Positions 26,956-45,400 of a stretch of 64,000 bases of DNA are shown here, in pieces. The DNA lies in IMG/VR virus record IMGVR_UViG_3300011113_000787, positions 47,269-111,268 of that record; one strand, written 5' to 3'. Below the pieces are notes generated by a model, which saw only the letters and a program-made list of their open reading frames with translations, was not told the DNA's origin and ran no database searches. Source of the stretch: a virus. Lineage: Duplodnaviria > Heunggongvirae > Uroviricota > Caudoviricetes. The translations under genes were made by a program, and so were the position numbers. Numbering within the stretch: position 1 is the stretch's first letter; each line of letters opens with the position of its first letter.

Positions 26956-27363
26956 TTAATCATTTGTCTTAGCGTCAATTGTCCCTCCAGCATCAAATGT
27001 ACTGAACTTAAGTCCAGCATATTGTGATAACTCAACCATTTTTACTCTTAAATCATGAAAATAGAGTTCACCATAACATTTATCCACCATTTCTTTATTA
27101 ATCGGACCACCATCCCACCCATTTTCAATCAAAGGAGTTTTATCTATAATAACATCACAATCATAATCAATAAAGTTCTCACTCATAGTGTATGGTCCCA
27201 TTTTTCTTTTTACTAAAACTTCAACAGATTTGTTTGTTTTAAATTCGAGAACATAGGGATATGATAGAGGCATAAGATTATCCCAAACCTTACTAAGAGT
27301 TTTAGTGTAGTCTTTGACTATATCCTTTTCCTCATATTCAGAAGTCCATCCCATACTATGCAC
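26956..27363 (-). CDS. hypothetical protein (135 aa)
   Basis: ORF coupled to upstream gene. Confidence 0.4.
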   Translation of the reverse strand: MHSMGWTSEYEEKDIVKDYTKTLSKVWDNLMPLSYPYVLEFKTNKSVEVLVKRKMGPYTMSENFIDYDCDVIIDKTPLIENGWDGGPINKEMVDKCYGELYFHDLRVKMVELSQYAGLKFSTFDAGGTIDAKTND

Positions 27364-28783
27364 CTACTTTCTTTACAACACCTGAGGTCCCTTGCTGCAC
27401 ATCTCTTGCCTTGGCACCTTGATAATCAAATTCACCTCTGGCGGTGTTAGCTCCTACATCCGCTACTTTCAGATACTTACCCTCATTATTATATTTGAAT
27501 AGTTTTTTTCCACCTAAGTACGCCAAATATAAATCACCATACGCTGTACCAAAATTCGAATCTACCCATCTCAAAAATTCTTCAGTAGGTCGTTCTTTAA
27601 ACCTACTGTTAGACTCTTTCTCAATATACTTTAATGTTGTTTTTTCTAATTCTTTTCCGACATATTCTCCAATTTCTTGTTCAGTCAATGCTGCAACTTT
27701 AGAAAAAACAGCAGGTTCAAATTTAGTTGCAAGAATTGTTGAAGTTCTGAGTAGTGTTGGTGATAATATTGAAGAAATTAATGAACCTACTTTTTGAGCA
27801 CTACCTTGTAAGTTTTTTGAAAACCACGCAACTATTTGAGTATAATAAGGTTCAATTTTAGAAATTAAGTTTGATACCCAATTAATCCCCATCCTGTCTT
27901 TCATAAATTTAGCAGCTTGTCCAAACCAGTACATGAGAGTTTTAAAACCTCCAATAATAATTTGAATAAATGGTTTTACTGAAGTTCCCGCATTACTTTT
28001 CATTAATGCAGCTAAGAAACCTTCAACAGAAGTGAAAACCTTGCCAGCAAAGGCGGATAAAGGTTTTCCTAAATAACCTGAACTTACACAACAAATAATA
28101 TCAATTAATAAATTACCTAAATAACCTGTGTTACCATTAACAACAACTTGATATAAATCATAAAGGCCCATTATACCCCAAACAATCGTAACCGCAACAG
28201 CACCCGCACCTGTAAAAGACAAAGCAATTTGTATTGCAGTTCCAACACCACTGAAAAGTGCCTGTCTGATGTTTTCCATCACATAAGTAAGACCTTTTTC
28301 TTTGATGTAGTTAATTGCATCCATTAAACCTGAGGTTGCTTGTTGATTATAAGTCTTCATAGCATTTCTTTCACTTTGAGACATAAACCTCGATTCAGGT
28401 TGTTCAACAAGGGTAACTTTCAAGGATTCTAATATGAAGTTATGGAGTCTTTCCAATTCTTTCGAAAAATCGTCTATGGATTCGTTAAGTACATTTAAAA
28501 ATTTGTTGTTAAAATTTTCTAAAATATTTGAGTTATTTCCAAACAACCCTAAAGCATAATCATTTTGAACATTTCTGAGGTAAATGTTCTTATCAACGCC
28601 AACAAGCATAGAGATTCTATGTAAGTGTACTCCCTTTTGAAACTCAAATTCTTCTTGTATGAATGAAAATTGTTCTGATAATTTTGTGGGACAGGCTTTT
28701 TTATATCTTTTTGGAACGAATTTATCGTGTAATCCTAAAATTCTATCTTTTTCGGACTCAGATATGATAAGTGAATTATTCAT
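27356..28783 (-). CDS. large membrane protein (475 aa) with Gly-zipper TM region and family N-terminal helix
   Basis: MNNSLIISESEKDRILGLH N-terminus; central GVGTAIQIALSFTGAGAVAVTIVWGIMG hydrophobic region; adjacent to the M23 peptidase gene. Confidence 0.5.
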   Translation of the reverse strand: MNNSLIISESEKDRILGLHDKFVPKRYKKACPTKLSEQFSFIQEEFEFQKGVHLHRISMLVGVDKNIYLRNVQNDYALGLFGNNSNILENFNNKFLNVLNESIDDFSKELERLHNFILESLKVTLVEQPESRFMSQSERNAMKTYNQQATSGLMDAINYIKEKGLTYVMENIRQALFSGVGTAIQIALSFTGAGAVAVTIVWGIMGLYDLYQVVVNGNTGYLGNLLIDIICCVSSGYLGKPLSAFAGKVFTSVEGFLAALMKSNAGTSVKPFIQIIIGGFKTLMYWFGQAAKFMKDRMGINWVSNLISKIEPYYTQIVAWFSKNLQGSAQKVGSLISSILSPTLLRTSTILATKFEPAVFSKVAALTEQEIGEYVGKELEKTTLKYIEKESNSRFKERPTEEFLRWVDSNFGTAYGDLYLAYLGGKKLFKYNNEGKYLKVADVGANTARGEFDYQGAKARDVQQGTSGVVKKVGA

Positions 28784-28801: not shown

Positions 28802-29419
28802 TTAAAATTTAAAATTGAATATAGACCCGAAGCCTGTGTCTTTGGTTAAATCTTCCTCATCATTGTCTACATCATCCGACGGTTGTGCTGTGCCTATGTT
28901 TACTTTATTGAGATTTATATTACCTCCGCATTTGATAGTACCATCATCGTTAATAAGTTCTCTGATGTTATGGCCCGACTCAATCCCAATATGTAAGTGG
29001 TCGTATGAACTTCCTGGGAAATCCATAACATAACCTAAGAGTTGACCACACTCAATCTTGTCTCCTTTGTTTACCTGTGGGTCTTTCAAGTGTGTATAAT
29101 AAACATCAGGTAAACCCTCATCACTTTTCACTGTGAATCCTGCACCAAATAATTTCTTTCCGTTTGTTTTGATTACCTTAGGACCATAGTCTTTGAATGT
29201 TACTACAGTTCCTGGTGCAACTGCATAAACAGGGTCCCCTATATCTGCTTTAATATCCCAAGCATTGTTACTTTGCCATCCTGATTGTCCTGCGTGAGCT
29301 CCATCTCTTGGTATTTTGATGTCGTTATCTCCCATTATTTTATCTGAGGCGTTTGGGGCTTCATTAATTCCTGACTTAATCAACCTTAATAGTTGTGACT
29401 CTGTTAAAATGTACTTCAT
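28802..29419 (-). CDS. M23 (LytM-type) metallopeptidase with family N-terminal helix motif
   Basis: MKYILTESQLLRLIKSGINE N-terminus; HAGQSGWQ..D..IGDPVYAVAPGTV...YYTHL...GQLLGYV...HLHIGIE = M23 HxxxD / HxH blocks. Confidence 0.65.
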   Translation of the reverse strand: MKYILTESQLLRLIKSGINEAPNASDKIMGDNDIKIPRDGAHAGQSGWQSNNAWDIKADIGDPVYAVAPGTVVTFKDYGPKVIKTNGKKLFGAGFTVKSDEGLPDVYYTHLKDPQVNKGDKIECGQLLGYVMDFPGSSYDHLHIGIESGHNIRELINDDGTIKCGGNINLNKVNIGTAQPSDDVDNDEEDLTKDTGFGSIFNFKF

Positions 29420-29838: not shown

Positions 29839-30246
29839 TTACAATCCCCAAGCTGGGTTAGCAATTATCAATTTTCCGTCTTCTACTCTTGGTAAATCAC
29901 CTAAGTCTTGATAACCTGCATATTCAATCTCATGAGGGAAGAATTTTTGACCATTAAACATGATATAATTGTCCCCTTCTTCTTCTTTTCCAATATGACT
30001 ATATCCGTGTTTTTTTAAATGTGTTTTTGCCGCGTCATCTACAGTTGGTCTACCAAAGTTCAAATCCCAAAAACTTTCTTTAGTTTCTTTTTTCTCAACT
30101 TTTTGTTCTACTAATGTTTTAACGTCACCGAGTCTTGATTTCACAAGTTTATTGAACTTCTCATTTGAAAGTTTCATTCCACCTGTATGCTGTTCGCGGA
30201 TTGCATTTTTCTCTTGCTCCGACAAATTATTTAAAAGATGCTTCAT
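29839..30246 (-). CDS. hypothetical protein (135 aa)
   Basis: N-terminus LSEQEKNAIREQH weakly family-like. Confidence 0.4.
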   Translation of the reverse strand: MKHLLNNLSEQEKNAIREQHTGGMKLSNEKFNKLVKSRLGDVKTLVEQKVEKKETKESFWDLNFGRPTVDDAAKTHLKKHGYSHIGKEEEGDNYIMFNGQKFFPHEIEYAGYQDLGDLPRVEDGKLIIANPAWGL

Positions 30247-30294: not shown

Positions 30295-30669
30295 TTAATT
30301 CATCCACTTACTAATAACCTGACCATCAGGTCTTACTACCGCAAAACCAGTTTTTTTGTTTGGTTCGATACCGATATAAGGTAAAAACTTTTTGAAGTGA
30401 TAATCAACCAAGTAATGGGGGTCTAGCTCCTTATCATACATATTTTCTTCATCCATCTCGGGGTCATTCACATAAATTCTCAAAATAAAATAATTAATAT
30501 CCTCGAGTTCATAAACATCAATATGGTCTACCATAGGGTAGATATCTTTGATACTACTTTGGTTGACGTATTTTGTTAATGGTTTATTGATGTATTTGGC
30601 AACTTCATCCAATTTAGAATTTGCTATCTGATAATGTTTAACTGTAGGATATGTTATAGTTTCCTTCAC
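30295..30669 (-). CDS. hypothetical protein (124 aa)
   Basis: ORF in minus operon. Confidence 0.4.
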   Translation of the reverse strand: MKETITYPTVKHYQIANSKLDEVAKYINKPLTKYVNQSSIKDIYPMVDHIDVYELEDINYFILRIYVNDPEMDEENMYDKELDPHYLVDYHFKKFLPYIGIEPNKKTGFAVVRPDGQVISKWMN

Positions 30670-30672
30670 GTT

Positions 30673-31194
30673 TTATTTTGTTTCAGTTTTTTTCAGTTTG
30701 ATTTGGTTTCCCAAAATAGCCAATATTACACCTAAAACAATTGAAATCTGATTGTCCAAAAACCCACCTGCAATTTGAGGATATAATGTATCAATTAAAT
30801 AAGATATCGGTGCACCAAAAAGGGCAAGGTTTAAAAAACCAATTGATGCAAGAGTTCCGAATACGCCATTTTTGATTTTATCTTTAACACTAAGCTTTTC
30901 ATCATCTTCGGTCATTTCTAAAGAATTTTCCGAAGAAGTTGAATCAACTAAGTCATCAGCAATTGCTATTGCAGTCAATGGGTTAGTATTTGAACTTATT
31001 CCAATTGAACTTAGTCTATTTTGGACATTCGATAGTTCTTTAGGTGTTAACATGTCCAAGGCTTTATCTACCATTCTATTCAATTTTGGGGAATTAACGA
31101 TTTCAGATGCAAGTTCGAGTTGTTCTTGTTCTTTGATGACTCTTTTTACAAGTCTTGTTAAATCTGATTCAGTAAGTCTTATTATTCTACTCAT
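30673..31194 (-). CDS. family-B protein (RLTESDLTRLVKRVIKE) with C-terminal TM segments
   Basis: N-terminal motif; C-terminal hydrophobic helices. Confidence 0.45.
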   Translation of the reverse strand: MSRIIRLTESDLTRLVKRVIKEQEQLELASEIVNSPKLNRMVDKALDMLTPKELSNVQNRLSSIGISSNTNPLTAIAIADDLVDSTSSENSLEMTEDDEKLSVKDKIKNGVFGTLASIGFLNLALFGAPISYLIDTLYPQIAGGFLDNQISIVLGVILAILGNQIKLKKTETK

Positions 31195-31204
31195 AAAATA
31201 TTGA

Positions 31205-31492
31205 TTACATTCTATGTTTTATATACAAAATAACATCTCCGAGTCTATTCCAATCCTCGTCTTGAATAATATCTTTTAACCATGAAATAAGATAATCCTT
31301 TTTCTTCATCACTTCACCTCTCAGGTCACCAGAATAATCAGTAAGTCTTACATCTTCATCACCAGCTAAATCTTTTTGCAAATTACGTATTTGCTGAGTA
31401 CCATAACCGATTCTACGTTCGTCATCCTCTTTTATAATTCTCTTAACCAATTTTTGTAGGTCAGACTCGTTTAATTTCACAATTTTTGGCAT
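31205..31492 (-). CDS. family-B small protein (KLNESDLQKLVKRIIKE)
   Basis: N-terminal motif nearly identical to 30673 and 38698 proteins. Confidence 0.45.
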   Translation of the reverse strand: MPKIVKLNESDLQKLVKRIIKEDDERRIGYGTQQIRNLQKDLAGDEDVRLTDYSGDLRGEVMKKKDYLISWLKDIIQDEDWNRLGDVILYIKHRM

Positions 31493-34965: not shown

Positions 34966-35090
34966 GAAGACGACCCCTTTTTCTGAGATGGTTTCTACGA
35001 CGGGGGATATTCGGTCCGACGAAGTCGGTCGGGGACGGCGGTCGGAGGATTTCGGGGGAAAATACCGACGGAGTCGGTTTCGGTTTGCGA
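34966..35090. other. GC-rich intergenic island with two copies of hairpin CCGAC-NNA-GTCGG (possible structured RNA or protein-binding site)
   Basis: CCGACgaaGTCGG at 35016-35028 and CCGACggaGTCGG at 35065-35077 within a ~120-bp >60% GC patch in a ~33% GC genome. Confidence 0.35.
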
Positions 35091-35119
35091 ATACAGACCA
35101 AAAAGAAGAATAAAAGATA

Positions 35120-35452
35120 CTAATCCATATCCCAATTATAAATTATTTTTTTAACAGGAAGTCCCGAATTATCTTCAAACCATTTTACAAATACAGGTCT
35201 CCATCTATCACCAAATAAAGTATCAAGTTTGTTTTCAACCCATGTTCTAATTAATAGTTCCCCTCTTCCTTGTCCACGGTAAGCATATGCTCTTCTATCA
35301 TTAATTGCAAAATCATAAAACCCAAACTTTGCAATATCCTTTTTATAAAAGTCATGAAGCTCAGGTCCCCAATTATAATCGGGGTGATAATTTGTTGTTA
35401 GATATTCATAAATGAAATCATTAAGACGAGACTCGGATATAAGATATTTCAT
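35120..35452 (-). CDS. MKYLISE-family small protein (group A)
   Basis: MKYLISESRLNDFIYEYL N-terminus; C-terminus KWFEDNSGLPVKKI family block; TATTTATAATTA box upstream. Confidence 0.5.
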   Translation of the reverse strand: MKYLISESRLNDFIYEYLTTNYHPDYNWGPELHDFYKKDIAKFGFYDFAINDRRAYAYRGQGRGELLIRTWVENKLDTLFGDRWRPVFVKWFEDNSGLPVKKIIYNWDMD

Positions 35453-35478
35453 TAATTATAAATACCCTGACCCCCACT

Positions 35479-35646
35479 TCTAAAATTTGTGGGCATAAGA
35501 ATTAGTTATTAGTTTTTCGGCTCTATACTTTATACTATCGTGTTTTTTATACTCACGGTCCATGACCTCCTCAATCTCATCTTTCGGAACATTTGCAGCT
35601 TCAAGAAGTCTTCTTATAATTTCAATATCAATATGTTGCGTGGACA
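35479..35646 (-). CDS. small protein (55 aa), paralog of 35803..36000; not in ORF track
   Basis: MSTQHIDIEIIRRLLEAANVPKDEIEEV vs IDIEILTEVLRTANVSEEEIQV in neighbour. Confidence 0.35.
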
Positions 35647-35876
35647 TTTTTATTTGTTAAGTCATTTAATTCTCTATGTAATATATCAACTTGCTCCCTA
35701 CCCACTCTGATGTACATATACTTCATAAGGTCAGACATATCTGAGAGTTTTTTTATAGCATCTTCATACTTTTCCATAAACCCCTCGGGGAGACAATATG
35801 TATTATTTTTCGGTTCCATGTATTTGTTTTGTTCCTCCCATAAACTGTCTTTCAAATTCAGTGTCCTGTGAATCAA
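35628..35876 (-). CDS. hypothetical small protein (82 aa)
   Basis: ORF. Confidence 0.35.
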   Translation of the reverse strand: MIHRTLNLKDSLWEEQNKYMEPKNNTYCLPEGFMEKYEDAIKKLSDMSDLMKYMYIRVGREQVDILHRELNDLTNKNVHATY

Positions 35877-36000
35877 TTAGTTTTTCAATATTAACTTGAA
35901 TCTCTTCTTCTGAGACATTTGCAGTTCTTAATACTTCAGTTAATATCTCAATATCAATTTCGTTGGAGAGTTTTTTTGCGAGTAATTCTTCTACGGTCAT
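35803..36000 (-). CDS. small protein (65 aa), paralog of 35479..35646
   Basis: Shared IDIEI..L..ANV..EEI motif. Confidence 0.35.
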   Translation of the reverse strand: MTVEELLAKKLSNEIDIEILTEVLRTANVSEEEIQVNIEKLIDSQDTEFERQFMGGTKQIHGTEK

Positions 36001-36338
36001 TTAATTATTAATTTCAAAAGGTCACTTAAAACTTTAATATTATTCCTCTCACCAAACCAATCTCTAATATATTTCCATGATTCGTTGGGGTCGATAGAAA
36101 AATACCCTTCAATCTTATCACATAACTCCTCTGACCTATAAACTTTGACCATATCTTGTCTGATAGAAAACCATATAATTAAGGTTCCATTGGATGACCT
36201 AACGTCATAGTTTTCTGACCATGTTCTAAAAAGTCCTGAAGGTCTTGGTTCACATAAAGTGCCATCACCAACATACTCATCCAAAAAATTATAAATCTTG
36301 TCTTTCATATACCAAATGTATTTTTTCAATTCCTCCAA
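35997..36338 (-). CDS. hypothetical protein (113 aa)
   Basis: ORF with ATGA coupling. Confidence 0.4.
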   Translation of the reverse strand: MEELKKYIWYMKDKIYNFLDEYVGDGTLCEPRPSGLFRTWSENYDVRSSNGTLIIWFSIRQDMVKVYRSEELCDKIEGYFSIDPNESWKYIRDWFGERNNIKVLSDLLKLIIK

Positions 36339-36525
36339 TCTTATACCTCTCCTTCCACGTATCCATTACATCACTATACTCATTATCAACCTGATTTTGA
36401 TGTCCCTTCAAATATTGCCTACCCTCAGGTGTGTAATCCCTTCCCAATCTTTGAAACTCAAACATGTGAGGGAATTTATTTTTAGGATAATCCATATCTT
36501 TTGTGTATTTGTGCGTTGGAACCAA
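36289..36525 (-). CDS. small protein, tandem paralog 1 of 3 (FPHMFEFQRLGRDY)
   Basis: Shares (K/R)FP(H/Y)xxxLxxxxxxY(T/C/K) N-terminal block and IHK/IHL C-terminal block with next two ORFs. Confidence 0.4.
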   Translation of the reverse strand: MVPTHKYTKDMDYPKNKFPHMFEFQRLGRDYTPEGRQYLKGHQNQVDNEYSDVMDTWKERYKIGGIEKIHLVYERQDL

Positions 36526-36691
36526 ATTTTATTCTTTCCGATATTGCTTCCATTATTTCTGTATACTCACATTGAAGTTCCTCCTCATGGTCCTCATAAT
36601 ACTCCTCCCCTTTCGCACAATATCTTCCACCAAGAATTTTTAATTTATAAACATGGGGAAACCTCTCTTTATTGTGTATTGTTAACTGCAT
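36482..36691 (-). CDS. small protein, tandem paralog 2 of 3 (RFPHVYKLKILGGRY)
   Basis: See paralog 1. Confidence 0.4.
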   Translation of the reverse strand: MQLTIHNKERFPHVYKLKILGGRYCAKGEEYYEDHEEELQCEYTEIMEAISERIKFGSNAQIHKRYGLS

Positions 36692-36884
36692 CCAATTTAT
36701 GAATTTTATTATTACCCCCCAAAATTAAAACTCTATGTTCAATAAGGTCAAGTCTATCTCGATACTCCTTCCATAGTTCATGCTTATAATCCCTTCGAAA
36801 CAACCAACTATCTTGCCTTGGAATTTCAAATTCCATTCTCTCAAGTTCATAAAGATAAGGAAACATTTTCTTTGGAAATTTCAT
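36669..36884 (-). CDS. small protein, tandem paralog 3 of 3 (MFPYLYELERMEFEI)
   Basis: See paralog 1. Confidence 0.4.
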   Translation of the reverse strand: MKFPKKMFPYLYELERMEFEIPRQDSWLFRRDYKHELWKEYRDRLDLIEHRVLILGGNNKIHKLDAVNNTQ

Positions 36885-37104
36885 TACTCCTCATCTTTTT
36901 TATCAAACAAATACTCATGTAAAATTGTACCCCCAAATATCAGAAGAGTTACACCAAAGAAAATTATAATTGAATAGTCCATGTCTTACCTTTTCATGCA
37001 AACTTAGGTCTTTTAGAAAAATTTTCCAAAAATTTTTTTTTGAGTATAAAGGGGTATTTTGAAATGGGGGGTCTTGTCTATGGAACGTAGTGGAATACTT
37101 GTTT

Positions 37105-37179
37105 TGGAAATATATTTCCATTTGTGTGAATATGGGTGGACTTTTACCCCACCATTATTTGAAATAAGAAATATATTTC
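37105..37179. promoter_or_regulatory. pair of perfect palindromes TGGAAATATATTTCCA / GAAATATATTTC, 63 bp apart (operator candidates)
   Basis: 16-bp perfect palindrome at 37105-37120 and 12-bp copy at 37168-37179, upstream of the 36289-36884 paralog array. Confidence 0.35.
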
Positions 37180-37192
37180 CAATTCCCACAAA

Positions 37193-37220
37193 TAAAAAAC
37201 CCCTCTTGTTGGGGAGGGGG
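37193..37220 (-). terminator. rho-independent terminator (minus strand)
   Basis: A-run + CCCCTC ttgttggg GAGGGG. Confidence 0.5.
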
Positions 37221-37224
37221 TGAA

Positions 37225-37542
37225 TTAATAATATATTGAACAATATGCGTGGAGGATAAGCTCATCGGGAAACCTATATTCAAACCATTTCCTAAATAGG
37301 ATTCCAGTTTCAGCCTGATTCAGGTTTAAATAATTCATAATGGTTAAGAATAGTTGTTGTTTAATTCCCAAGCTATGGTCCACAAATTCAAAGACAAGGT
37401 CTTCATTTTCATCAATCATTTCAAAGTCCCCTTCTTTAGCATTCACATTGGTTGAATCAACAACCTGAAGTTCCCCCACCGTATCAGTGATATACTTATC
37501 AATTATTTTTACAAGTCTACTTTCTGCAATGATATAATCCAT
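37225..37542 (-). CDS. MDYIIAE-family small protein (group A)
   Basis: MDYIIAESRLVKIIDKYI N-terminus; C-terminus FRKWFEYRFPDEL. Confidence 0.5.
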   Translation of the reverse strand: MDYIIAESRLVKIIDKYITDTVGELQVVDSTNVNAKEGDFEMIDENEDLVFEFVDHSLGIKQQLFLTIMNYLNLNQAETGILFRKWFEYRFPDELILHAYCSIYY

Positions 37543-37544
37543 AA

Positions 37545-37790
37545 TTAAAAATTGTGAACCAACTTATAAGTCCATCTAGGATTGGATGGTTTATATATCT
37601 TTCCGTGAAAATTGAACAGGGTTTCTATTGTCTCAGCCAATTCCCTAACTTGCTCAGAAGAAGGAACAGGATATTTTAAATAAATAATCACCTCCCCATC
37701 CTCTATTTGAGCATCATCAACAAAACGTTTTTGTTCCAAAAAACTCAAAACAAGTTTCTCCAATCTGCTCTCACTTATAATATATTTCAT
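37545..37790 (-). CDS. MKYIISE-family small protein (group A); start reassigned to ATG 37790
   Basis: MKYIISESRLEKLVLSFL; GGTATTTATTTTT box immediately upstream of this ATG (track start 37817 lies upstream of the box). Confidence 0.5.
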   Translation of the reverse strand: MKYIISESRLEKLVLSFLEQKRFVDDAQIEDGEVIIYLKYPVPSSEQVRELAETIETLFNFHGKIYKPSNPRWTYKLVHNF

Positions 37791-37869
37791 AAAAATAAAT
37801 ACCCAAAAAAGGGACAATTTTTTCCCAAAAATTTTTAAATGAAAAAACCCCCTTCTTTTCAGAAGAGGG
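37791..37869. repeat. intergenic terminator-promoter cassette, copy 1 (~75 bp)
   Basis: AAATAAATACC...AAAAGGGACAATTTTTTCCCAAAAATTTTTAAATGAAAAAACCCCCTTCTTTTCAGAAGAGGGTC. Confidence 0.6.
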
Positions 37870-37875
37870 TCGTGT

Positions 37876-38172
37876 TTAAACTTCTTTATTCAATTTCATT
37901 TCTTCCCATTCCTCCCTACTGAAAGGGTTATTATAAACCCCACAAATTTCAACGTCCATATATTTTGCAAGATTTCTAACAAATTCATTAACATCCTCAT
38001 AGTTTACGTTTTCCAAATTTTCATCTAAGATACCAAGAAATACTTCATAACATTTGTTACGAGGAGTATAGACATACCCTATACCTGAATCTTCCTTAAC
38101 TCTGAAATCCAAATACATTGGGAATTTATCGAAAAACATTTGTCTTAAAAAGTTCTCAAAACCTTTTTTCAT
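37876..38172 (-). CDS. hypothetical small protein; start reassigned to ATG 38172 (MKKGFENF...)
   Basis: GGTATTTATTTTAT box directly upstream of 38172. Confidence 0.45.
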   Translation of the reverse strand: MKKGFENFLRQMFFDKFPMYLDFRVKEDSGIGYVYTPRNKCYEVFLGILDENLENVNYEDVNEFVRNLAKYMDVEICGVYNNPFSREEWEEMKLNKEV

Positions 38173-38252
38173 ATAAAATAAATACCACCCCGAAAGGACA
38201 ATTTTTTCCAAAAATTTTTAAATGAAAAAACCCCCTTCTTTTCAGAAGAGGG
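38166..38252. repeat. intergenic terminator-promoter cassette, copy 2
   Basis: Near-identical to copy 1 including hairpin CCCCCTTCTTTTCAGAAGAGGG. Confidence 0.6.
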
Positions 38253-38266
38253 TCTTGTTTTAGAAA

Positions 38267-38605
38267 TTACATTTTTGGACTTGTGTCTTGGAGTTGTTCA
38301 AAGGTTGGAAGAGTTACCCCCGTTATTTTCTTTGCTGTTAAATCATCTTGAACAAGCTTGACCACTTGAGGATATAACTGAGCTGCGTCTTTTCCTTCTG
38401 CACCTTTACTTGTGATAATTTGACTTGTTGTCTTATCAATAACTTTTATATCAACTCTACATGAACCATAGAAACAAAACTTTGTTCCCGCAGCCATGTA
38501 CTGTGTATTAGGAGCAGGTTGTTGCGGTTGAGTCTGCTCAGAAAGATTATGCATCCCCAAGATACTTCTTCTTTCTTCTTCTGTAATTATTACTAAGTTT
38601 TTCAT
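38267..38605 (-). CDS. family-B small protein (MKNLVIITEEERRSILGMH); start ATG 38605
   Basis: TATTTATTGAAT box directly upstream. Confidence 0.45.
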   Translation of the reverse strand: MKNLVIITEEERRSILGMHNLSEQTQPQQPAPNTQYMAAGTKFCFYGSCRVDIKVIDKTTSQIITSKGAEGKDAAQLYPQVVKLVQDDLTAKKITGVTLPTFEQLQDTSPKM

Positions 38606-38610
38606 ATTCA

Positions 38611-38672
38611 ATAAATACCAAAATTTTCCAAAAATTTTTAAATGAAAAAACCCCCTTCATTTCTGAAGAGGG
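38611..38672. repeat. intergenic terminator-promoter cassette, copy 3
   Basis: ATAAATACCAAAATTTTCCAAAAATTTTTAAATGAAAAAACCCCCTTCATTTCTGAAGAGGGTC. Confidence 0.6.
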
Positions 38673-38697
38673 TCTTATTTCTAAAATATTTTTTAAT

Positions 38698-38931
38698 TTA
38701 TTTTACAGGTGAACCTTGTGAAGGTGCTGAACAATCCAATCCTATTTTTTGACCGTTAATGATGAAAACCAAATCATCACCCTCAACAACTACTTGAGCT
38801 GTTTTGTTAGGTAATGTATTTAATTTAGCAACTAAATCAGCAGGATTCAAATCCATTCTAAAACCTTCTTTTAAAATTTTTTTGGTTAATCTAACCAAAT
38901 CAGATTCTCTCAATTTTATAGTCTTTGCCAT
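38698..38931 (-). CDS. family-B small protein (KLRESDLVRLTKKILKEG)
   Basis: N-terminal motif; preceded by partial copy 4 of cassette (38945-38992). Confidence 0.45.
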   Translation of the reverse strand: MAKTIKLRESDLVRLTKKILKEGFRMDLNPADLVAKLNTLPNKTAQVVVEGDDLVFIINGQKIGLDCSAPSQGSPVK

Positions 38932-39157
38932 GTTTAAATGTTTTCAATAAATACCTCAAAAAAGGACAATTTTTTCCCAAAAATTTTTTTTGCGTTACTC
39001 AAGGTATTATCCCCCCCAAACTGACGTTTTGTCCTATAGTAAGGGGGGATACGGGGGGAGGGGCCCCCACCTAGGGGGTATACCCCCATGCCGAAGGGGG
39101 GTTATGTGGATAAATAGTTATCCCCACCTCCCCTGTGGATAAATAAATTTGGTTTTG

Positions 39158-39661
39158 TTAAAATGTCGTTTTGTCTTTTCTTGCAAACACGGCGTCTTCA
39201 GGGACCTCCATCTTAGGAGCGAGCCATGACCCCACCACGAACTGTCTATCTTTGCCGAGCTTAAGGTCTTCGGGAATGGCGGGGGACTTAGCAATTTGTT
39301 TCATTGTCTTTTCTATATCCTCTTGTATGTAGTTACTATCTTCACGGGGTACATCATACATGGTTGTGAGATATGCTGTCGAGTAGGCGTATGGGTCGTG
39401 GGTGTGAAGGAATGTATTCTCGGTCCCGAAATAGAATTTCATGTATGAGTTAAGTGGCCACCCCGTCTCACGTTGTAACATGTATGGGTCAATTAGCACA
39501 TTAACAAATATTAAGGCGTATTGGTTTATCTCCTCATCTGAGGGGAGAAGGACATCTATAATCCATGGGAACTCACGTTTAAGAATTTTCTTAATTAGCT
39601 TAAACTCATAGGAGTTTTCCACCTCTTCTTTTGTGACGAATCTTTGGGGGTCATTAAACAT
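39158..39661 (-). CDS. hypothetical protein (167 aa) with FPWIIDV motif; higher GC than surroundings
   Basis: KREFPWIIDVLLP block shared with 15996..16625. Confidence 0.45.
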   Translation of the reverse strand: MFNDPQRFVTKEEVENSYEFKLIKKILKREFPWIIDVLLPSDEEINQYALIFVNVLIDPYMLQRETGWPLNSYMKFYFGTENTFLHTHDPYAYSTAYLTTMYDVPREDSNYIQEDIEKTMKQIAKSPAIPEDLKLGKDRQFVVGSWLAPKMEVPEDAVFARKDKTTF

Positions 39662-39724
39662 GAAAAATAAATTTGTTTAATTGATAAATAGTTTGGACCT
39701 TTGATAATCTAAATCTTAACTAAT

Positions 39725-39859
39725 ATGAAGAAGTTTATTAAAGCTGTGATTATCGGGTACGTTGTATTGTGGGGGGTTCAGTGGATGAAAGACCTTTTCC
39801 GTGATGAGAACATTAACACTTTGGATGACGTGAAGCGTCTGTTGAAGGAGAAGTTATAA
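39725..39859 (+). CDS. small membrane peptide (44 aa), not in ORF track
   Basis: MKKFIKAVIIGYVVLWGVQWM...; ATG 39725 to TAA 39857-39859. Confidence 0.3.
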   Translation: MKKFIKAVIIGYVVLWGVQWMKDLFRDENINTLDDVKRLLKEKL

Positions 39860-40279
39860 CCCCGACATTAGTATTCTGTTTCTACACTCACTTATAATCT
39901 GAGCTGGGGTGATGGACTCGTCTTTTGTATAGAGTCCTTCCACCTTGGCATCTACGCATGCCCATGAGTTAAGACCTATGGGTTTTCTCACATAACCTCT
40001 TTTTGCTTTCTCGAAGTATAGTATACCGAGACTCTCTGTGAGCTCCCCCACCTTGAAGAGTACCTCCACAGATATTCGCTCAGGCGTGATTAGTGTTATA
40101 TCATACGACAGTTTGGCGGATGTATCGACGTTAGTTGATTCCATATACGGTAAAACATAGTTATGGAACATATAAAAATAAAGGGTCCCACTCACACGAT
40201 ATCCACCTGACGATATGTCTGTGTGGATAAAAAAGTTTTCCACACGAGGTTTGGGGATAACTTTTTTTGGAAAAGACAA
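39854..40279 (-). CDS. hypothetical protein (141 aa); N-terminal part overlaps DnaA-box cluster so true start may be internal Met
   Basis: ORF; first ~35 codons coincide with DnaA boxes at 40198-40245. Confidence 0.35.
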   Translation of the reverse strand: MSFPKKVIPKPRVENFFIHTDISSGGYRVSGTLYFYMFHNYVLPYMESTNVDTSAKLSYDITLITPERISVEVLFKVGELTESLGILYFEKAKRGYVRKPIGLNSWACVDAKVEGLYTKDESITPAQIISECRNRILMSGL

Positions 40280-40587
40280 AAAGTCAGGGGAGCTTTAGAT
40301 GGGGGATAATCCCCTCGACCCATTTTCCCCCACTTTTCCCCACCACTCATTCCCACTTTCTCCCACCCATTATGGTCATGGCATACCCTAAAACCCCACT
40401 TTTTCCCTTCTGACGGTATCAGGAGGACCAGTTTTTTACTATGTATATTTCTTAGCAAAAAAAGGAAGATTAAGTATAATGAGCGGGGAGTGAGTGTAAC
40501 GAACCTTTAATATGATTAAATTACCTTCAACGAGATGGACATGTAGTGTCCCATAGTATGGACAATTCATATATGGTGGGTAAATGT

Positions 40588-40740
40588 GGGAGTTAATTAT
40601 ACGATATTTCATTTAATCGTGTGAATACACGATACTCTATTTTATCGTTTCATTTGACGATACTATGGTCATGTCGAAAATATCGTTTCGTTTCATCACG
40701 AAGTGTTGTCTAATGACGATATGATATACATGACCATTAT
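40588..40740. repeat. iteron-like direct repeats (ACGATAyT / TTTCATTT) and inverted TATGGTCATG copies
   Basis: ACGATA at 40591, 40618, 40648, 40705; TTTCATTT at 40597, 40638, 40681; TATGGTCATG at 40371 and 40654, inverted copy at 40719-40729. Confidence 0.45.
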
Positions 40741-41557: not shown

Positions 41558-41938
41558 ATGAGATACATTATAACACAGACGCAGCTTCATACACTTATAT
41601 ACAAGTATTTGGATGAGATGTTCTCTTCACAAGACTTTAGAAAAGAAATTAATCCATACGTTAAAGACGGTAATACTTGGAGGATTAATATGTTTGATAA
41701 TGAAGGTAATGAACTCATGAACTATTTTTGGTTTGGACCAGGTAATTCTTGGGACGACGATGAAGACACTCCTCCACACAATGGTGTTGGTAATCTTCAT
41801 ATCCACCACAAAGTTGTTGATACGTTAAAGAAGACATTCTCCATTAGGGAGAGCAAAGTTCTTGATATTGTTGCTGATTGGGTTAGTGAGACTTTGGGTG
41901 CAGATATTGATGATATTGATATCTACCCTGAAAAATAA
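41558..41938 (+). CDS. MRYIITQ-family small protein (group A, plus strand)
   Basis: MRYIITQTQLHTLIYKYLDEMF. Confidence 0.45.
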   Translation: MRYIITQTQLHTLIYKYLDEMFSSQDFRKEINPYVKDGNTWRINMFDNEGNELMNYFWFGPGNSWDDDEDTPPHNGVGNLHIHHKVVDTLKKTFSIRESKVLDIVADWVSETLGADIDDIDIYPEK

Positions 41939-41996
41939 AACCCCCACCATTTCTGATGAGGGTCTCCCTTCGGTAGCGTTCCGTTAGGAAAGAATG

Positions 41997-42371
41997 TTAT
42001 TGTTTGTCGAAGGTTAGTGAAATATCTCCACCATTTTCGAATAGATTCCACGCTAATAGTGTTGCCCCACCGTTTGCGGTTTGTACCCACTGTATACCAT
42101 TTGCAACTGCGGTCATCTTAATTGTTTGGTCATTATCTGCCATCCATCCACGGTCCACATATACTCCTGCTTCAGGACCAAAAGATAGATTACCTTGCAT
42201 GTACCATACGTTTGGTGTTACCCAAAATAGTAATGACTTTGTATTATGTACTTCTTCAGAGGACCACTGCGTCTGAGAGTTTGGTCCTATGGTTGTGTTG
42301 CCAGGACCTACACCGTCAACTGTTAAGTTGTATTCAGTGTTGTTTTGAATTGTGATGTTTGCTTGCCACAT
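41997..42371 (-). CDS. hypothetical beta-rich protein (124 aa)
   Basis: ORF; Gly/Asn/Thr/Trp-rich, lectin-like composition. Confidence 0.4.
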   Translation of the reverse strand: MWQANITIQNNTEYNLTVDGVGPGNTTIGPNSQTQWSSEEVHNTKSLLFWVTPNVWYMQGNLSFGPEAGVYVDRGWMADNDQTIKMTAVANGIQWVQTANGGATLLAWNLFENGGDISLTFDKQ

Positions 42372-42435
42372 ATTTTTTTTATCTATAAATATAAGTTGGT
42401 TGTCCTACTTAAATTTTATTTATATCTTTGATAAC

Positions 42436-42747
42436 ATGGAAAGAATTTATTCTGCGGCAATTTGGTATAAAGATATGCCAACACCAAAATATAAACCAAC
42501 AAATGTTGAAGTGGGTCTCGTTGTTGAAGGACATAGACATGCCGATATTATTAGAACTATGGTTAATCTTCTCGGCAAACGCACTTGCACAAATGGTGAA
42601 GACTGCACTGGTGAATCTGTACAGGGTTTTGTGACCAATAAGAATCGATTTGTTGATAGAGTTGAAGCACTCAAAATCGCTCGTGAAGCAAATCAATTAA
42701 TTTCAGAAACATCATTCTCTGAGCTTTACTCTGAAGACCTATATTAA
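42436..42747 (+). CDS. hypothetical protein (103 aa); start reassigned to ATG 42436
   Basis: MERIYSAAIWYKDM...GLVVEGHRHADII; possible small hydrolase, not assigned. Confidence 0.35.
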   Translation: MERIYSAAIWYKDMPTPKYKPTNVEVGLVVEGHRHADIIRTMVNLLGKRTCTNGEDCTGESVQGFVTNKNRFVDRVEALKIAREANQLISETSFSELYSEDLY

Positions 42748-42773: not shown

Positions 42774-43025
42774 ATGAAGTACATCATAACAGAACAACAA
42801 GCCTCAGAGATTTTTGCTCTCTATAGAAAACTAATTCAGGATGTCTTGGAACAAAAAGATATCTATGTGAAAGATGTTGAAATCACTCCTATATATTTCC
42901 CGAGAGGGTTGAAAGTGATTGTTAAATTGGAAAAAGGTCAAGATAAGGAGCTCGCAAGGAAACTTATTAAAGGTATAGTTGGAAGTCTTTCAGGTTTTGG
43001 TCAAAGAGAAGTTAGTCTCCCTTAA
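42774..43025 (+). CDS. MKYIITE-family small protein (plus strand)
   Basis: MKYIITEQQASEIFALYRKLIQ. Confidence 0.45.
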   Translation: MKYIITEQQASEIFALYRKLIQDVLEQKDIYVKDVEITPIYFPRGLKVIVKLEKGQDKELARKLIKGIVGSLSGFGQREVSLP

Positions 43026-44162: not shown

Positions 44163-44837
44163 TCATTTTTTCTTTTTCACACAGTTCGGATATCTTTTAC
44201 CAAACATAGTTTTCATGCCCTTTTGAGTGTATCCTTTCCAGCATCTCTCTTTGAGTTCACCCTCGGTCTGTTCCATCTTTTTCTCACCTCCAGGTCTGAT
44301 AACAATTATCTGACCAACATATAGGTTTTGTGGCGTTATTGGAGTTTCATAAAAATCAAACCAACATCTTCTGAAGTCGTACTTACTCACAACTCTCATC
44401 TCTTCTAAGTAAGGGTCTAAGATAAATAAGTTTTCATCATTATACCCTATGACTACTGATGAATGTCCCTCGGGTGGGTCACCACAGAACCAATCGACAA
44501 TCACAGGAACGTTGGCATCAATCAAACGAACAACTTCTTCGATTGTTGAGTTGTTTTTCATATAAACTTTGAAACCTAAAGACTCAGCTGCACAAGCCAT
44601 GTCTTCACTCTTACATCCTAATTCATATGTGTGGTCACAAATTTCAGCAATATCTTTCTCACTCAACATTGTACCATAGTATCCGAAAACCATTCTTAGT
44701 GAAGCAGGTCCGCAAGTTGAATCATCTGATTGTAGAAAATGAGGAACATCCAAAATCTTTGTTGGAGTTTGGTTAGTTTCCTCAATTATCAGAGAAACCA
44801 ATTCGATAAGTTGTGTTTCAGTTAATCTACGTATCAT
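44163..44837 (-). CDS. C39-like papain-fold cysteine peptidase with family N-terminal helix
   Basis: MIRRLTETQLIELVSLIIEE N-terminus; FLQSDDSTCGPASLRMVFGYYG (Q..CG.ASL.M) and GHSSVVIGY...DP blocks as in peptidase C39. Confidence 0.55.
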   Translation of the reverse strand: MIRRLTETQLIELVSLIIEETNQTPTKILDVPHFLQSDDSTCGPASLRMVFGYYGTMLSEKDIAEICDHTYELGCKSEDMACAAESLGFKVYMKNNSTIEEVVRLIDANVPVIVDWFCGDPPEGHSSVVIGYNDENLFILDPYLEEMRVVSKYDFRRCWFDFYETPITPQNLYVGQIIVIRPGGEKKMEQTEGELKERCWKGYTQKGMKTMFGKRYPNCVKKKK

Positions 44838-45400
44838 GCTCTTGAAAATATAAATTCAATGTCTCTTGGGAAACCATCTTTTTGATGAGGACTATCTATA
44901 CCACCCATTCTTATAAAATCTTTGAAGTTTGACCTAAAGACTTCTAAATCGTCGTGAAACTTTTGGTTTTTAACCCAATTGAACCAATCATCAGTCACAG
45001 GTGTTAGTACAACAATCCATTTATCAGATTGAGGCGTTACTTTATTAACTTTGAGTCCTTTGAGACGCTCGAAGTTGTTCATTTTCCTGGTTTTTCTGAA
45101 AACAAAGTCTACAAGTTTTTGGAACTCTTCCTCATACGGTTCCCACTGAGGGTCCTTAATATATTTTGGTTCCCCATCAATCTTATTTTTCAGATAATAT
45201 AATGGGTCGAAATATTCTTTTAAGTCCTCATGAGTTCCACAGTGAGGACATATTGGCTTAGATTTCTTTCCTTTATGTATAGTTTGGGTGTACTTCTTTT
45301 TACAATTTCTACATTTGATAAATTTTGCAGTCTCATCTTTTTCTTCCATGAGTTTTTTCATCAAATCAAGATGTTGTTTTTCAGAAATTAAAATGTTCAT
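44834..45400 (-). CDS. zinc-ribbon protein (188 aa) with family N-terminal helix (MNILISEKQHLDLMKKLMEE)
   Basis: CRNCKKK...CPHCG zinc ribbon. Confidence 0.45.
   Translation of the reverse strand: MNILISEKQHLDLMKKLMEEKDETAKFIKCRNCKKKYTQTIHKGKKSKPICPHCGTHEDLKEYFDPLYYLKNKIDGEPKYIKDPQWEPYEEEFQKLVDFVFRKTRKMNNFERLKGLKVNKVTPQSDKWIVVLTPVTDDWFNWVKNQKFHDDLEVFRSNFKDFIRMGGIDSPHQKDGFPRDIEFIFSRA

What the first reader, a model, noticed from the sequence alone, without database searches (positions are those of the whole stretch)
37225..38992. Array of family genes separated by a repeated ~75-bp terminator-promoter cassette (3 full copies + 1 partial)
Full copies at 37791-37869, 38166-38252, 38611-38672 and a partial one at 38945-38992: AATAAATACC..AAAAGGACAATTTTTTCC(C)AAAAATTTTTAAATGAAAAAACCCCCTTC(T/A)TTTC(A/T)GAAGAGGGTC. 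Read on the coding (minus) strand each copy is a G/C hairpin, a U-run, ~45 nt of A/T, then GGTATTTATT, then the ATG. This suggests gene-cassette duplication with its own regulatory unit. The repeats could also act as recombination substrates for cassette shuffling.
Basis: seen in the sequence. Interest (0 to 1): 0.6.

Follow-up and report, generated by a model that had tools for sequence, protein, structure and literature searches.

The report
Swappable terminator-promoter cassettes in huge phage
A cluster of five small phage genes is punctuated by near-identical 85-94 bp "stop transcription, then restart" cassettes, and in related ~320-kb phage genomes the same cassettes frame different genes, so they appear to act as both gene-expression units and swap points for gene shuffling.

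Summary
The repeat is real: three full copies and one promoter-only copy, where chance predicts none. Each full copy, read on the minus strand, is an intrinsic terminator (11-13 bp stem, GAAA loop, U6; -17 to -19 kcal/mol), an A/T block, then TATTTAT 4-5 nt before the ATG.

TATTTAT is not specific to the cassette. It is this phage's general gene-start signal (about 75% of its 55 occurrences in the window sit just upstream of an ORF) and is probably a phage-specific promoter.

The five genes are not a family. Their bodies are unrelated; three share only a ~22-aa N-terminal leader that at least 17 genes in the window carry.

The window comes from an uncultured ~320-kb phage lineage, probably with a Bacteroidota host. 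In eight related genome types, the slot between two conserved anchors holds 3-9 different genes in different orders. Against the closest relative, the cassettes are ~100%-identical islands between unalignable gene bodies. One relative has g1-cassette-g3 where the window has g1-cassette-g2-cassette-g3.

This is the behaviour described for PeSL cassettes of T4-like phages, but the promoter is not sigma-70-like. Verdict: a new variant of a known kind, of moderate interest. Expression and recombination remain inferred.

The parts
39158..39661 (-). Upstream anchor gene (167 aa, no known family). It is conserved next to the array in all relatives.
   Evidence: tblastn 36-60% aa identity in L002, L007, L012, L015, L019, L024, L031, L034; no Pfam/PHROG hit.
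38993..39157 (-). G/C-rich conserved non-coding block at the head of the array. It contains TATTTATCCACA twice (39105-39116, 39134-39145), the invariant CCCCCCGTATCCCCCCTTA, and GGGGGGGATAATACC. Function unknown.
   Evidence: Alignment A1 of six genomes shows long invariant runs. About 95% identical to L007, versus 79% for the neighbouring CDS. No covariation. No Rfam hit. Pattern counts.
38932..38992 (-). No terminator.
   Evidence: An orthologous sequence is present in L002, L007, L012, L019 and L035.
38698..38931 (-). g1, 77 aa. A type-1 leader (MAKTIKLRESDLVRLTKKILKE) plus a conserved small body.
   Evidence: Orthologues at 65-100% identity. Alignment A5 shows the same body with a different leader in P0010 and P0011. 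The AF2 model has low confidence; the leader is a helix at residues 9-22.
38606..38697 (-). Cassette C: terminator 38647-38676 (loop AGAAAT, closing A-U, GAAA tetraloop, U6), CATTTAAAAATTTTTGGAAAATTTTGG, TATTTAT 38611-38617, 5 nt, then the ATG of g2.
   Evidence: Fold -19.3 kcal/mol, z = -4.4; terminator scan; 68 nt 100% identical to the L007 cassette between non-homologous genes.
38267..38605 (-). g2, 112 aa. A second leader type (MKNLVIITEEERRSILGMH), shared with gene 27356-28783.
   Evidence: Only a weak body match to an L002 cargo gene. Absent between the g1 and g3 orthologues in L035/L036.
38173..38266 (-). Cassette B: terminator 38227-38256 (loop TGAAAA), long A/T block including AAAAAATTGTCCTTTCGGGGTGG, TATTTAT 38178-38184, 5 nt, then the ATG of g3.
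   Evidence: Fold -18.7 kcal/mol, z = -4.4.
37876..38172 (-). g3, 98 aa, no leader.
   Evidence: Orthologues at 77-79% aa identity in L019, L035 and L036, with different neighbours.
37791..37875 (-). Cassette A: terminator 37846-37871 (loop TGAAAA), long A/T block, TATTTAT 37795-37801, 4 nt, then the ATG of g4.
   Evidence: Fold -17.2 kcal/mol, z = -4.2.
37545..37790 (-). g4, 81 aa, type-1 leader (MKYIISESRLEKLV). No cassette separates it from g5, so the two are probably co-transcribed.
37225..37542 (-). g5, 105 aa, type-1 leader (MDYIIAESRLVKII). Last gene of the array.
   Evidence: 85% nt identity to L007, starting exactly at the ATG; leader HMM.
37194..37219 (-). Tail terminator with unrelated sequence (CCCCTC-CCCAACAA-GAGGGG plus a T-run). 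It closes the array.
   Evidence: Terminator scan.
36999..37193 (-). Downstream anchor: conserved non-coding region with a 15-nt perfect inverted repeat (37104-37118 / 37168-37182) and a Bacteroidota-type promoter, TTTG (37027-37030) - N20 - TAAGTTTG (36999-37006). The promoter uses the same AAAAAATTTTTGGAAAA block as the cassettes.
   Evidence: Conserved at 74-81% in L002, L012, L019 and L024. Equivalent junctions in L012 and L019. Consensus from PMC2483708.

Best explanation
The window is part of an uncultured ~320-kb phage, probably infecting Bacteroidota. Positions 37.2-39.0 kb are a hyperplastic region: a slot between two conserved anchors that holds small orphan genes.

Each gene, or gene pair, is an autonomous transcription unit bounded by a homologous 85-94 bp composite cassette. 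The cassette has four parts:
1. An intrinsic terminator that stops the upstream transcript.
2. An A/T-tract block.
3. The phage's general start-proximal promoter box, TATTTAT(A/T).
4. An ATG 4-5 nt later. With Bacteroidota -7-box geometry this puts the transcription start on the ATG, so the mRNA would be leaderless.

Because the cassettes are nearly identical to one another and to those of co-circulating relatives, homologous recombination between them inserts, deletes and replaces whole gene-plus-regulatory modules without disturbing neighbouring genes. This is the mechanism shown for PeSL cassettes in T4-like phages.

Shown here: the anatomy, the fold energies, the genome-wide association of TATTTAT with gene starts, and the comparative mosaic pattern. 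Inferred: promoter activity, leaderless transcripts, termination efficiency, and that recombination takes place within the cassettes.
For: Repeat significance.
Terminators: -17 to -19 kcal/mol, z about -4.3, GAAA loops, U6 tails. Distant relatives keep a hairpin plus T-run with different stems at the same junctions.
TATTTAT: 40 of 55 occurrences (ORF of at least 40 aa within 25 nt) or 41 of 55 (ORF of at least 50 aa within 45 nt) lie just upstream of an ATG-ORF, against 5-44% for permuted 7-mers. Spacing is 4-5 nt in 23 of 41. It often directly follows unrelated terminators.
Phage context: endolysin, virion protein and nuclease genes; the cassette occurs in IMG/VR contigs of 317-321 kb.
Synteny with replaced interior: the flanks match L002 and L007 at 70-85%, while inside the array only the cassettes match, and the cargo proteins are not orthologous.
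Breakpoints: against L007, identity is ~100% over cassette C and high over cassette B, with unalignable gene bodies between.
Pan-locus view: 3-9 genes per slot and sparse sharing of cargo families. Homologues of window genes 58997-59425, 30295-30534 and 29839-30246 sit inside the arrays of relatives.
Insertion signature: g1-cassette-g3 in L035/L036 versus g1-C-g2-B-g3 in the window.
Precedent and mechanism: PMC2839356 and PMC4122927.
Against: There are no transcript data, so promoter and terminator activity and monocistronic expression are unproven. No sigma-70-type promoter lies in the cassette, and TATTTAT matches only 4 of the 6 specified positions of the Bacteroidota TAnnTTTG box, so which polymerase or sigma factor reads it is unknown. 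TATTTAT could instead be a translation signal, given its tight spacing to the ATG. High cassette identity could reflect purifying selection on regulation rather than recent exchange. No pair of near-identical genomes differing by a single cassette-bounded indel with the same cassette subtype was recovered; L035's cassette has a different stem. No recombinase or mini-circle evidence is available. Only one such array per genome was seen with this stem.
Confidence: 0.72

Rival explanations
1. Regulation only. The cassettes are conserved because each is a good terminator-promoter unit, and gene turnover in the slot happens by illegitimate recombination or other means. The cassettes mark module boundaries but are not the recombination substrate.
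For: A generic 'terminator - TATTTAT - ATG' unit with unrelated hairpin sequences occurs at many other genes in the window, so selection for this architecture is general. Some breakpoints lie outside the cassettes: one inside the leader codons of g1 and one at the ATG of g5.
Against: Function alone does not require near-identity of the whole 70-90 nt, including the loop-flanking and spacer sequence. Other terminators in the same genome differ freely. Cassette C is 100% identical to L007's cassette, while the adjacent coding flanks are 79-85% identical. Different combinations of loop type and spacer type, for example the AATTAC loop with three different downstream forms in L002, look like crossovers within cassettes.
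Confidence: 0.17
2. Tandem duplication of a gene together with its regulatory unit, followed by divergence of the coding parts.
For: Three of the five genes share an N-terminal leader, and the cassettes are near-identical direct repeats at 383-420 bp spacing.
Against: The bodies show no detectable similarity, while the cassettes are at least 90% identical. That is incompatible with divergence of a duplicated unit at a shared rate. The leader also occurs on at least 14 other window genes, including M23 and C39 peptidases, and uses different codons in each. Orthologues of individual array genes sit in other contexts in relatives.
Confidence: 0.05
3. The cassette is itself a small mobile intergenic element (MITE/REP-like, or an integron attC-like site) that has spread between pre-existing genes.
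For: It is short, hairpin-containing, repeated and intergenic. Truncated and indel variants exist. The same stem is found in a few unrelated viral contigs (L025, L026, L028, L033).
Against: It is always in the functional orientation, exactly between a stop codon and a start codon. There are no terminal inverted repeats or target-site duplications. No GTTRRRY core is visible in the cassette sequence. No integrase or transposase matched in any scanned window ORF of at least 150 aa. Between relatives it is the genes that differ, not the presence of cassettes between the same genes.
Confidence: 0.04

Closest known systems
PeSL (promoter-early stem-loop) cassettes of T4-like phages (Arbiol et al. 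2010, PMC2839356; Comeau et al. 2014, PMC4122927)
   Same: Both are small (~70-100 bp) conserved intergenic composites of a promoter and a G/C stem-loop terminator with G-T pairs. [quoted passage not shown] Each inserted gene arrives with its own promoter and terminator.
   Different: The promoter here is not sigma-70-like; it is a single TATTTAT(A/T) box 4-5 nt from the ATG, with no Shine-Dalgarno sequence. The stem-loop is a canonical terminator with a U-tract placed upstream of the promoter, not interleaved with -35/-10 boxes. The phage is an uncultured ~320-kb lineage with no detectable similarity to cultured phages, and its host is probably Bacteroidota rather than an enterobacterium or Vibrio. 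Many cargo genes also share an exchangeable N-terminal leader. No mini-circle or reporter evidence is available.
Morons of lambdoid phages (Hendrix and colleagues; as discussed in PMC2839356)
   Same: Single accessory genes inserted between other genes, each with its own promoter and terminator.
   Different: Morons lack conserved flanking sequences and are thought to arrive by illegitimate recombination. Here the flanking units are homologous repeats.
T4 internal-protein (IP) locus with capsid targeting sequence (Repoila et al. 1994, as summarised in PMC3012670)
   Same: A hypervariable phage locus of small, mutually unrelated proteins that share only a short N-terminal sequence. Residues 5-9 of the leader here read (L/I)-(T/S)-E, which resembles the L/I-x-E processing motif of T4 (recalled from prior knowledge, not tested).
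   Different: The leader here is longer (~22 aa, predicted helix). It occurs on enzymes (M23 and C39 peptidases) and on at least 17 genes across 64 kb. In some metagenomic proteins it is repeated internally, which does not fit a simple cleaved propeptide. Encapsidation was not tested.
Integron gene cassettes
   Same: An array of small, unrelated, exchangeable genes separated by short repeats that contain hairpins.
   Different: There is no IntI integrase, no attC R/L boxes or GTTRRRY core, and the genes are not promoterless. Exchange presumably uses general homologous recombination.

Membership tests
PeSL cassettes (T4-like phages) | [quoted passage not shown] | tested here: met
   Three cassettes of 85-94 nt, each with an 11-13 bp stem.
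PeSL cassettes (T4-like phages) | Strong sigma-70-like early promoter (-35/-10 with an AT-rich upstream region) | tested here: not met
   The sigma-70 scan finds no site inside any cassette, and sites in the region are at chance level (28 found versus 24.4 expected). An AT-rich block is present, but the proximal box is TATTTAT.
PeSL cassettes (T4-like phages) | Stem-loop functions as a transcription terminator or attenuator | not testable with these tools
   Predicted only: -17 to -19 kcal/mol plus a U6 tail.
PeSL cassettes (T4-like phages) | Enriched in hyperplastic regions next to ORFans | tested here: met
   The array genes have no Pfam or PHROG family. The slot content differs in every relative examined.
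PeSL cassettes (T4-like phages) | Indels and replacements between related phages are bounded by the cassettes | tested here: met
   Homology islands at cassettes C and B in the comparison with L007. One extra gene plus one extra cassette relative to L035/L036.
PeSL cassettes (T4-like phages) | Recombination between cassettes yields mini-circles | not testable with these tools
   Needs inverse PCR or long reads on infected cultures or viromes.
PeSL cassettes (T4-like phages) | Resident in a T4-like myovirus genome | tested here: inconclusive
   No nucleotide or protein match to cultured phages. The only hint is a precomputed Pfam T4_Y16D tag on the L013 homologue of window gene 42352-42747, which my own Pfam scan of the window copy did not reproduce. 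No T4 core gene lies in the window.
Integron cassette array | Adjacent IntI tyrosine recombinase, and attC sites with a conserved core | tested here: not met
   No integrase among the scanned window ORFs of at least 150 aa. The cassette sequence has no GTTRRRY core. Each gene has its own promoter-like box.
T4-type capsid-targeted internal proteins | Short N-terminal targeting sequence ending in an L/I-x-E protease site; proteins packaged in the head | tested here: inconclusive
   The leader contains (L/I)(T/S)E at residues 5-9. However, it continues as a ~14-residue helix and can be internal and repeated. Packaging is not testable.
Bacteroidota sigma-A promoter (-33 TTTG / -7 TAnnTTTG; PMC2483708) | TTTG, a spacer of about 20 nt (as read here), then TAnnTTTG | tested here: not met
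   Cassette boxes read TATTTAT(T/A), which matches 4 of the 6 specified positions, and sit 24 or 11 nt from the TTTG. By contrast, the downstream-anchor promoter at 36999-37030 does fit: TTTG-N20-TAAGTTTG.

The most novel reading that the evidence does not exclude
The exchangeable unit is larger than a regulatory cassette. Terminator, phage-specific leaderless promoter and a ~22-aa helical leader would together form a plug-and-play module: any cargo domain dropped into it is expressed autonomously and directed to a common destination, for example the virion interior or ejectosome as with T4's capsid targeting sequence, or a shared docking partner. The locus would then be a diversity-generating arsenal of co-delivered effector or anti-defence proteins in huge Bacteroidota phages. 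Leader swapping on the same body, the leader on M23 and C39 peptidases, and a breakpoint inside leader codons are compatible with this reading. Nothing tested here excludes it.
Probability: 0.2. Interest if true: 0.75.

Novelty: new variant of a known kind. Interest (0 to 1): 0.5.

Why it matters
PeSL-type shuffling has so far been documented only in T4-like phages, using host sigma-70 promoters. Finding the same logic in an unrelated, uncultured ~320-kb phage lineage, built from a different promoter type and canonical terminators, suggests it is a convergent or general strategy by which large phages keep a fast-evolving accessory gene pool without disrupting core transcription. It also gives three practical handles: a candidate promoter box (TATTTAT) and a likely leaderless-mRNA strategy for annotating these phages; defined anchors for tracking gene flux in metagenomes; and a set of leader-tagged orphan proteins as candidates for host-takeover or anti-defence functions.

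Tried and rejected
- Rfam at permissive E-value over 33-43.5 kb: only sub-threshold chance hits.
- Pfam and PHROGs on the array proteins and neighbours: nothing significant.
- Cultured phages: megablast of 30-45 kb and tblastn of a structural protein found no match.
- tRNA scan of the window: none.
- Sigma-70 promoter scan: chance level, none in the cassettes.
- Source contig: looking up a window protein returned only ~1.5-kb Logan contigs.
- G/C-rich block as a structured RNA: conserved sequence but 0 compensatory pairs. Its DnaA-box-like TTATCCACA sits inside TATTTATCCACA, so it may simply be a variant of the promoter box.
- AlphaFold2 of g1 with 11 orthologues: pLDDT 63, pTM 0.34, too poor for a fold search, so none was run.
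- Leader annotation: word-indexed and exhaustive profile searches returned only unnamed metagenomic proteins, plus a few spurious low-complexity hits.
- g2 body versus an L002 cargo gene: only 38% over 68 aa, not used as evidence.
- TAnnTTTG as the general promoter of the window: not enriched upstream of ORFs (16%, within the control range of 10-26%).
- Integron and MITE readings: rejected on sequence features and the absence of a recombinase.
Full report
**1. Observation**

Reading 36.8-39.6 kb directly and running the repeat finder confirm the reported direct repeats.
- The 29-nt terminator pattern matches with no mismatch three times (37843-37871, 38226-38254, 38646-38674); none of 100 shuffles gave a match.
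- The promoter-side block TTTTCC(C)AAAAATTTTT is present in four cassette positions and at a fifth site, 37021-37038; 13 matches versus 1.1 expected.
- Measured from stop codon to start codon, the units are A 37791-37875, B 38173-38266, C 38606-38697, and a promoter-only copy at 38932-38992.

**2. Anatomy on the coding (minus) strand**

Each full copy begins 5-25 nt after the upstream stop codon.
- The hairpin is GACCCTCTTC-loop-GAAGGGGGT, with 11-13 pairs including one G-U. The loop is TGAAAA or AGAAAT, giving a T-A or A-T closing pair on a GAAA tetraloop. It is followed by U6.
- Predicted energies are -17.2, -18.7 and -19.3 kcal/mol, with z about -4.2 to -4.4 against shuffles. The terminator scan calls all three.
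- Next comes CATTTAAAAATTTTTGG(G)AAAA. Copies A, B and the head copy have an extra AAATTGTCC...GGG segment.
- Then comes TATTTAT(T), 4-5 nt, and the ATG. In the head copy this spacing is 15 nt.
- The sigma-70 consensus scan finds nothing inside the cassettes, and sites in the region are at chance level overall.
- g4 and g5 abut without a cassette. A different terminator (37194-37219) closes the array.

**3. TATTTAT is a genome-wide signal, not a cassette feature**

- Of 55 occurrences in the 64-kb window, 40 have an ATG opening an ORF of at least 40 aa within 25 nt, and 41 have one of at least 50 aa within 45 nt. Permuted 7-mers of the same composition give 5-24%, or 44% for the overlapping ATTTATT.
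- The spacing to the ATG is 4 nt in 16 cases and 5 nt in 7 cases. The rest cluster at 10-16 and 20-23 nt.
- In relatives, the long-spacing class carries TAAAAT-like sequence before the ATG. This matches the Flavobacterium TAAAA motif found 2-12 nt upstream of start codons (PMC2483708, PMC6028130).
- About ten of these sites are directly preceded by unrelated G/C hairpins with T-runs. "Terminator - TATTTAT - ATG" is therefore the phage's general way of building gene units. What is special in the array is that the units are homologous copies.
- TATTTAT(A/T) matches 4 of the 6 specified positions of the Bacteroidota -7 box TAnnTTTG. TAnnTTTG itself is not enriched upstream of ORFs here (16%; controls 10-26%).
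- If the box occupies the same position as a -7 box, a 4-nt spacing puts +1 on the A of the ATG, which would make the mRNAs leaderless. This is an inference from geometry. In phiKZ, by contrast, no leaderless transcript was found (PMC8244752).
- The A/T block supplies a TTTG. In the conserved region downstream of the array it forms a good host-type promoter, TTTG-N20-TAAGTTTG (36999-37030). In the cassettes it lies 24 nt (long form) or 11 nt (medium form) from TATTTAT, so its role there is unclear.

**4. What genome this is**

- The window encodes a phage endolysin, a virion structural protein and a nuclease. It also encodes Bacteroidota-style accessory genes: a TonB-dependent receptor with a CarboxypepD_reg domain, PPK2, UDP-galactopyranose mutase, glycosyltransferases and a Y-family polymerase.
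- There are no tRNAs and no similarity to cultured phages.
- The cassette core occurs in IMG/VR contigs of 59-321 kb. Three of them are 317-321 kb and a fourth is 317 kb, which suggests complete genomes of about 320 kb (inference).
- Nearly all cellular homologues of the receptor are Bacteroidota (Flavobacterium, Chryseobacterium, Draconibacterium and others; one Bacteriovoracaceae MAG and a few unclassified MAGs are the exceptions), mostly at 22-26% identity with a few segments at 32-39%. This supports a Bacteroidota host and argues against recent capture or a prophage in a sequenced species.

**5. The genes are not a family**

- All-vs-all BLASTP of the five proteins shows similarity only in the first 20-30 residues of g1, g4 and g5. 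The bodies (aa 26 to end) give no hit better than E = 0.08.
- g2 carries another leader (ITEEERRSILGMH), shared with the 475-aa protein at 27356-28783. g3 has none.
- An HMM of the type-1 leader, roughly M-x-(Y/K)-I-(I/L)-(T/S)-E-S-(Q/D/R)-L-x-(R/K)-L-(V/I)-K, finds at least 17 genes in the window. They include an M23 peptidase (28802-29419) and a C39-like peptidase (44163-44837).
- Codon usage differs between copies (Ser AGC, AGT, TCT, TCA; Leu TTG, CTT, TTA, CTA). Conservation is therefore at the protein level.

**6. Comparative test of shuffling**

- Against L002, from a 317-kb relative, the flanks are syntenic: window 35016-37206 and 38880-40607 align at 70-80% nt identity. The interval between them is 1.7 kb with 5 genes in the window but 4.5 kb with 9 genes and 7 cassettes in L002. 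Only the cassettes match there. The cargo proteins are not orthologous and share only leaders.
- In a global alignment with the closest relative, L007, identity changes in steps:
  - about 95% through the G/C-rich block, the head promoter and the first ~18 codons of g1;
  - none through the rest of that gene;
  - 100% over 68 nt of cassette C;
  - none through the next gene;
  - high again over cassette B, with a different loop and a 13-nt indel;
  - none, until 85% resumes exactly at the ATG of g5.
- Orthologues of g1 at 65-100% identity lie in further genome types. The upstream anchor, G/C block, head promoter and g1 are usually retained, but what follows differs:
  - L012-L014: three unrelated genes.
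  - L015/L016: a homologue of window gene 58997-59425, which lies 20 kb away in the window, then a SET-domain gene.
  - L019: a homologue of window gene 30295-30534, then g3.
  - L035/L036: a single cassette, then g3.
- The last arrangement differs from the window (g1 - C - g2 - B - g3) by exactly one gene plus one cassette. That is the pattern expected from recombination between flanking cassettes.
- Cargo families are shared only sparsely across the seven slots compared. One family (MKHILNxLSEQEKNAIREQHTGG) is inside the array in L002 and L024 but at 29839-30246 in the window.
- Within L002, the same terminator loop (AATTAC) is joined to three different downstream forms. This suggests crossovers between the terminator and promoter halves of the cassette.
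- More distant relatives use other stems (CCCCTC...GAGGGG) followed by the same TTTTTTCATTTAAAAATTT or ATTTCC...GGGTATTTAT sequence. The hairpin plus U-tract is therefore maintained as a structure.

**7. Leader modularity (side finding that bears on the unit of exchange)**

- In alignment A5, the g1 body is 66-90% conserved. P0010 and P0011 carry the MNRSYSKIRHIQE(A/S)N-type leader in place of the LTESDL type.
- The window-versus-L007 breakpoint inside g1 falls in the leader codons.
- The exhaustive profile search finds 69 representatives at E of 1e-3 or better, mostly small proteins with the motif at residue 1. In P0048 and P0050 the motif is repeated internally, and P0046 is two units fused.
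- No source names any of these proteins.
- AlphaFold2 predicts the leader as a helix at residues 9-22, but the model has low confidence.

**8. Comparison with known systems**

The closest known system is the PeSL of T4-like phages. [quoted passage not shown] They mediate insertion, deletion and replacement, and they form mini-circles (PMC2839356; PMC4122927).

The present element behaves the same way in every respect that sequence can show, but it fails the defining sigma-70 promoter test and sits in an unrelated phage. I therefore do not file it as a PeSL in the strict sense; it is a new variant of that kind. Morons differ in having no conserved flanks. Integrons differ in having IntI and attC sites and promoterless cassettes, none of which are found here. 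The T4 internal-protein locus, in which diverse proteins share only a capsid targeting sequence (PMC3012670), is the best precedent for the leader, but membership is untested.

**9. Verdict**

The "family" and "duplication" ideas are not.
- Best explanation (0.72): PeSL-like terminator-promoter cassettes that insulate and express orphan genes and serve as homology for modular exchange in a hyperplastic region of a huge phage with a probable Bacteroidota host.
- Promoter activity, leaderless transcription and the recombination mechanism remain inferences.
- Interest is moderate (0.5). The most novel surviving reading, a combined expression-plus-targeting module for a shuffled effector arsenal, has a probability of about 0.2.

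Noticed in passing
whole window, e.g. 7809(+), 13466(+), 19073(+), 41547(+), 9815(-), 12834(-), 22694(-), 28795(-), 59734(-): TATTTAT(A/T) is a genome-wide gene-start motif. About 75% of its 55 occurrences are followed by an ATG-ORF, most often 4-5 nt away, and it often sits right after an unrelated intrinsic terminator. It is probably a phage-specific single-box promoter giving leaderless or very short-leader mRNAs.
   Followed up: yes
window genes 21611-21982, 24963-25382, 28802-29419, 30673-31194, 31205-31492, 35120-35452, 37225-37542, 37545-37790, 38698-38931, 41558-41938(+), 42774-43025(+), 44163-44837, 44834-45400, 57691-58014, 58011-58319, 58294-58605, 58602-59000: At least 17 otherwise unrelated proteins, including M23 and C39 peptidases, start with a shared ~22-aa helical leader (M-x-Y-I-I-T-E-S-Q-L-x-R-L-I-K...). 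At least two further leader types exist (ISEEEKxRILGLH; MNRSYSKIRHIQEAN). The same cargo body occurs with different leaders (P0010 and P0011 versus g1), and some metagenomic proteins repeat the motif internally (P0048, P0050). No annotation exists anywhere.
   Followed up: partly
window 38993-39157 (minus strand): A G/C-rich non-coding block in a 33% GC genome, more conserved than the flanking genes. CCCCCCGTATCCCCCCTTA is invariant in six genomes. It contains two TATTTATCCACA boxes (these include the DnaA-box-like TTATCCACA) and a GATAAT/TATAAT element. Gene callers place a spurious 51-aa ORF (38934-39089) on it. It shows no covariation and has no Rfam family.
   Followed up: partly
window 36999-37193: A conserved non-coding region downstream of the array with a perfect 15-nt inverted repeat (37104-37118 / 37168-37182, 49 nt apart). 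It also has a textbook Bacteroidota-type promoter, TTTG-N20-TAAGTTTG, ahead of a 32-aa hydrophobic ORF (36884-36982).
   Followed up: partly
window 36289-36884 and 35480-36000 (minus strand): True tandem paralogues lie just downstream of the array. Three overlapping small genes (36289-36525, 36482-36691, 36669-36884) share a motif of the form FP..YE..R...GG..KIH, and two more (35480-35647, 35803-36000) are related at a 326-nt repeat spacing. None has a cassette between copies.
   Followed up: no
window 41935-41964 (minus strand): A diverged fourth member of the same terminator family (GACCCTCATCAGAAATGGTGGGGGT). It has a compensatory T-A to A-T change in the stem and sits where two convergent genes end (41558-41938 on plus, 41997-42371 on minus).
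   Followed up: no
window 1813-2919, 49511-53017, 60977-63508: Cellular-type accessory genes inside a phage genome: PPK2, UDP-galactopyranose mutase plus two or three glycosyltransferases, and a full TonB-dependent receptor. The receptor's cellular homologues are nearly all Bacteroidota, mostly at 22-26% identity.
   Followed up: partly
L025, L026, L028, L033 (IMG/VR contigs unrelated to the window): The same terminator stem (GACCCTCTTC...GAAGGGGGT) occurs in other viral contigs, followed by a host-type TATCTTTG box rather than TATTTAT. The terminator half may circulate more widely among Bacteroidota phages.
   Followed up: no
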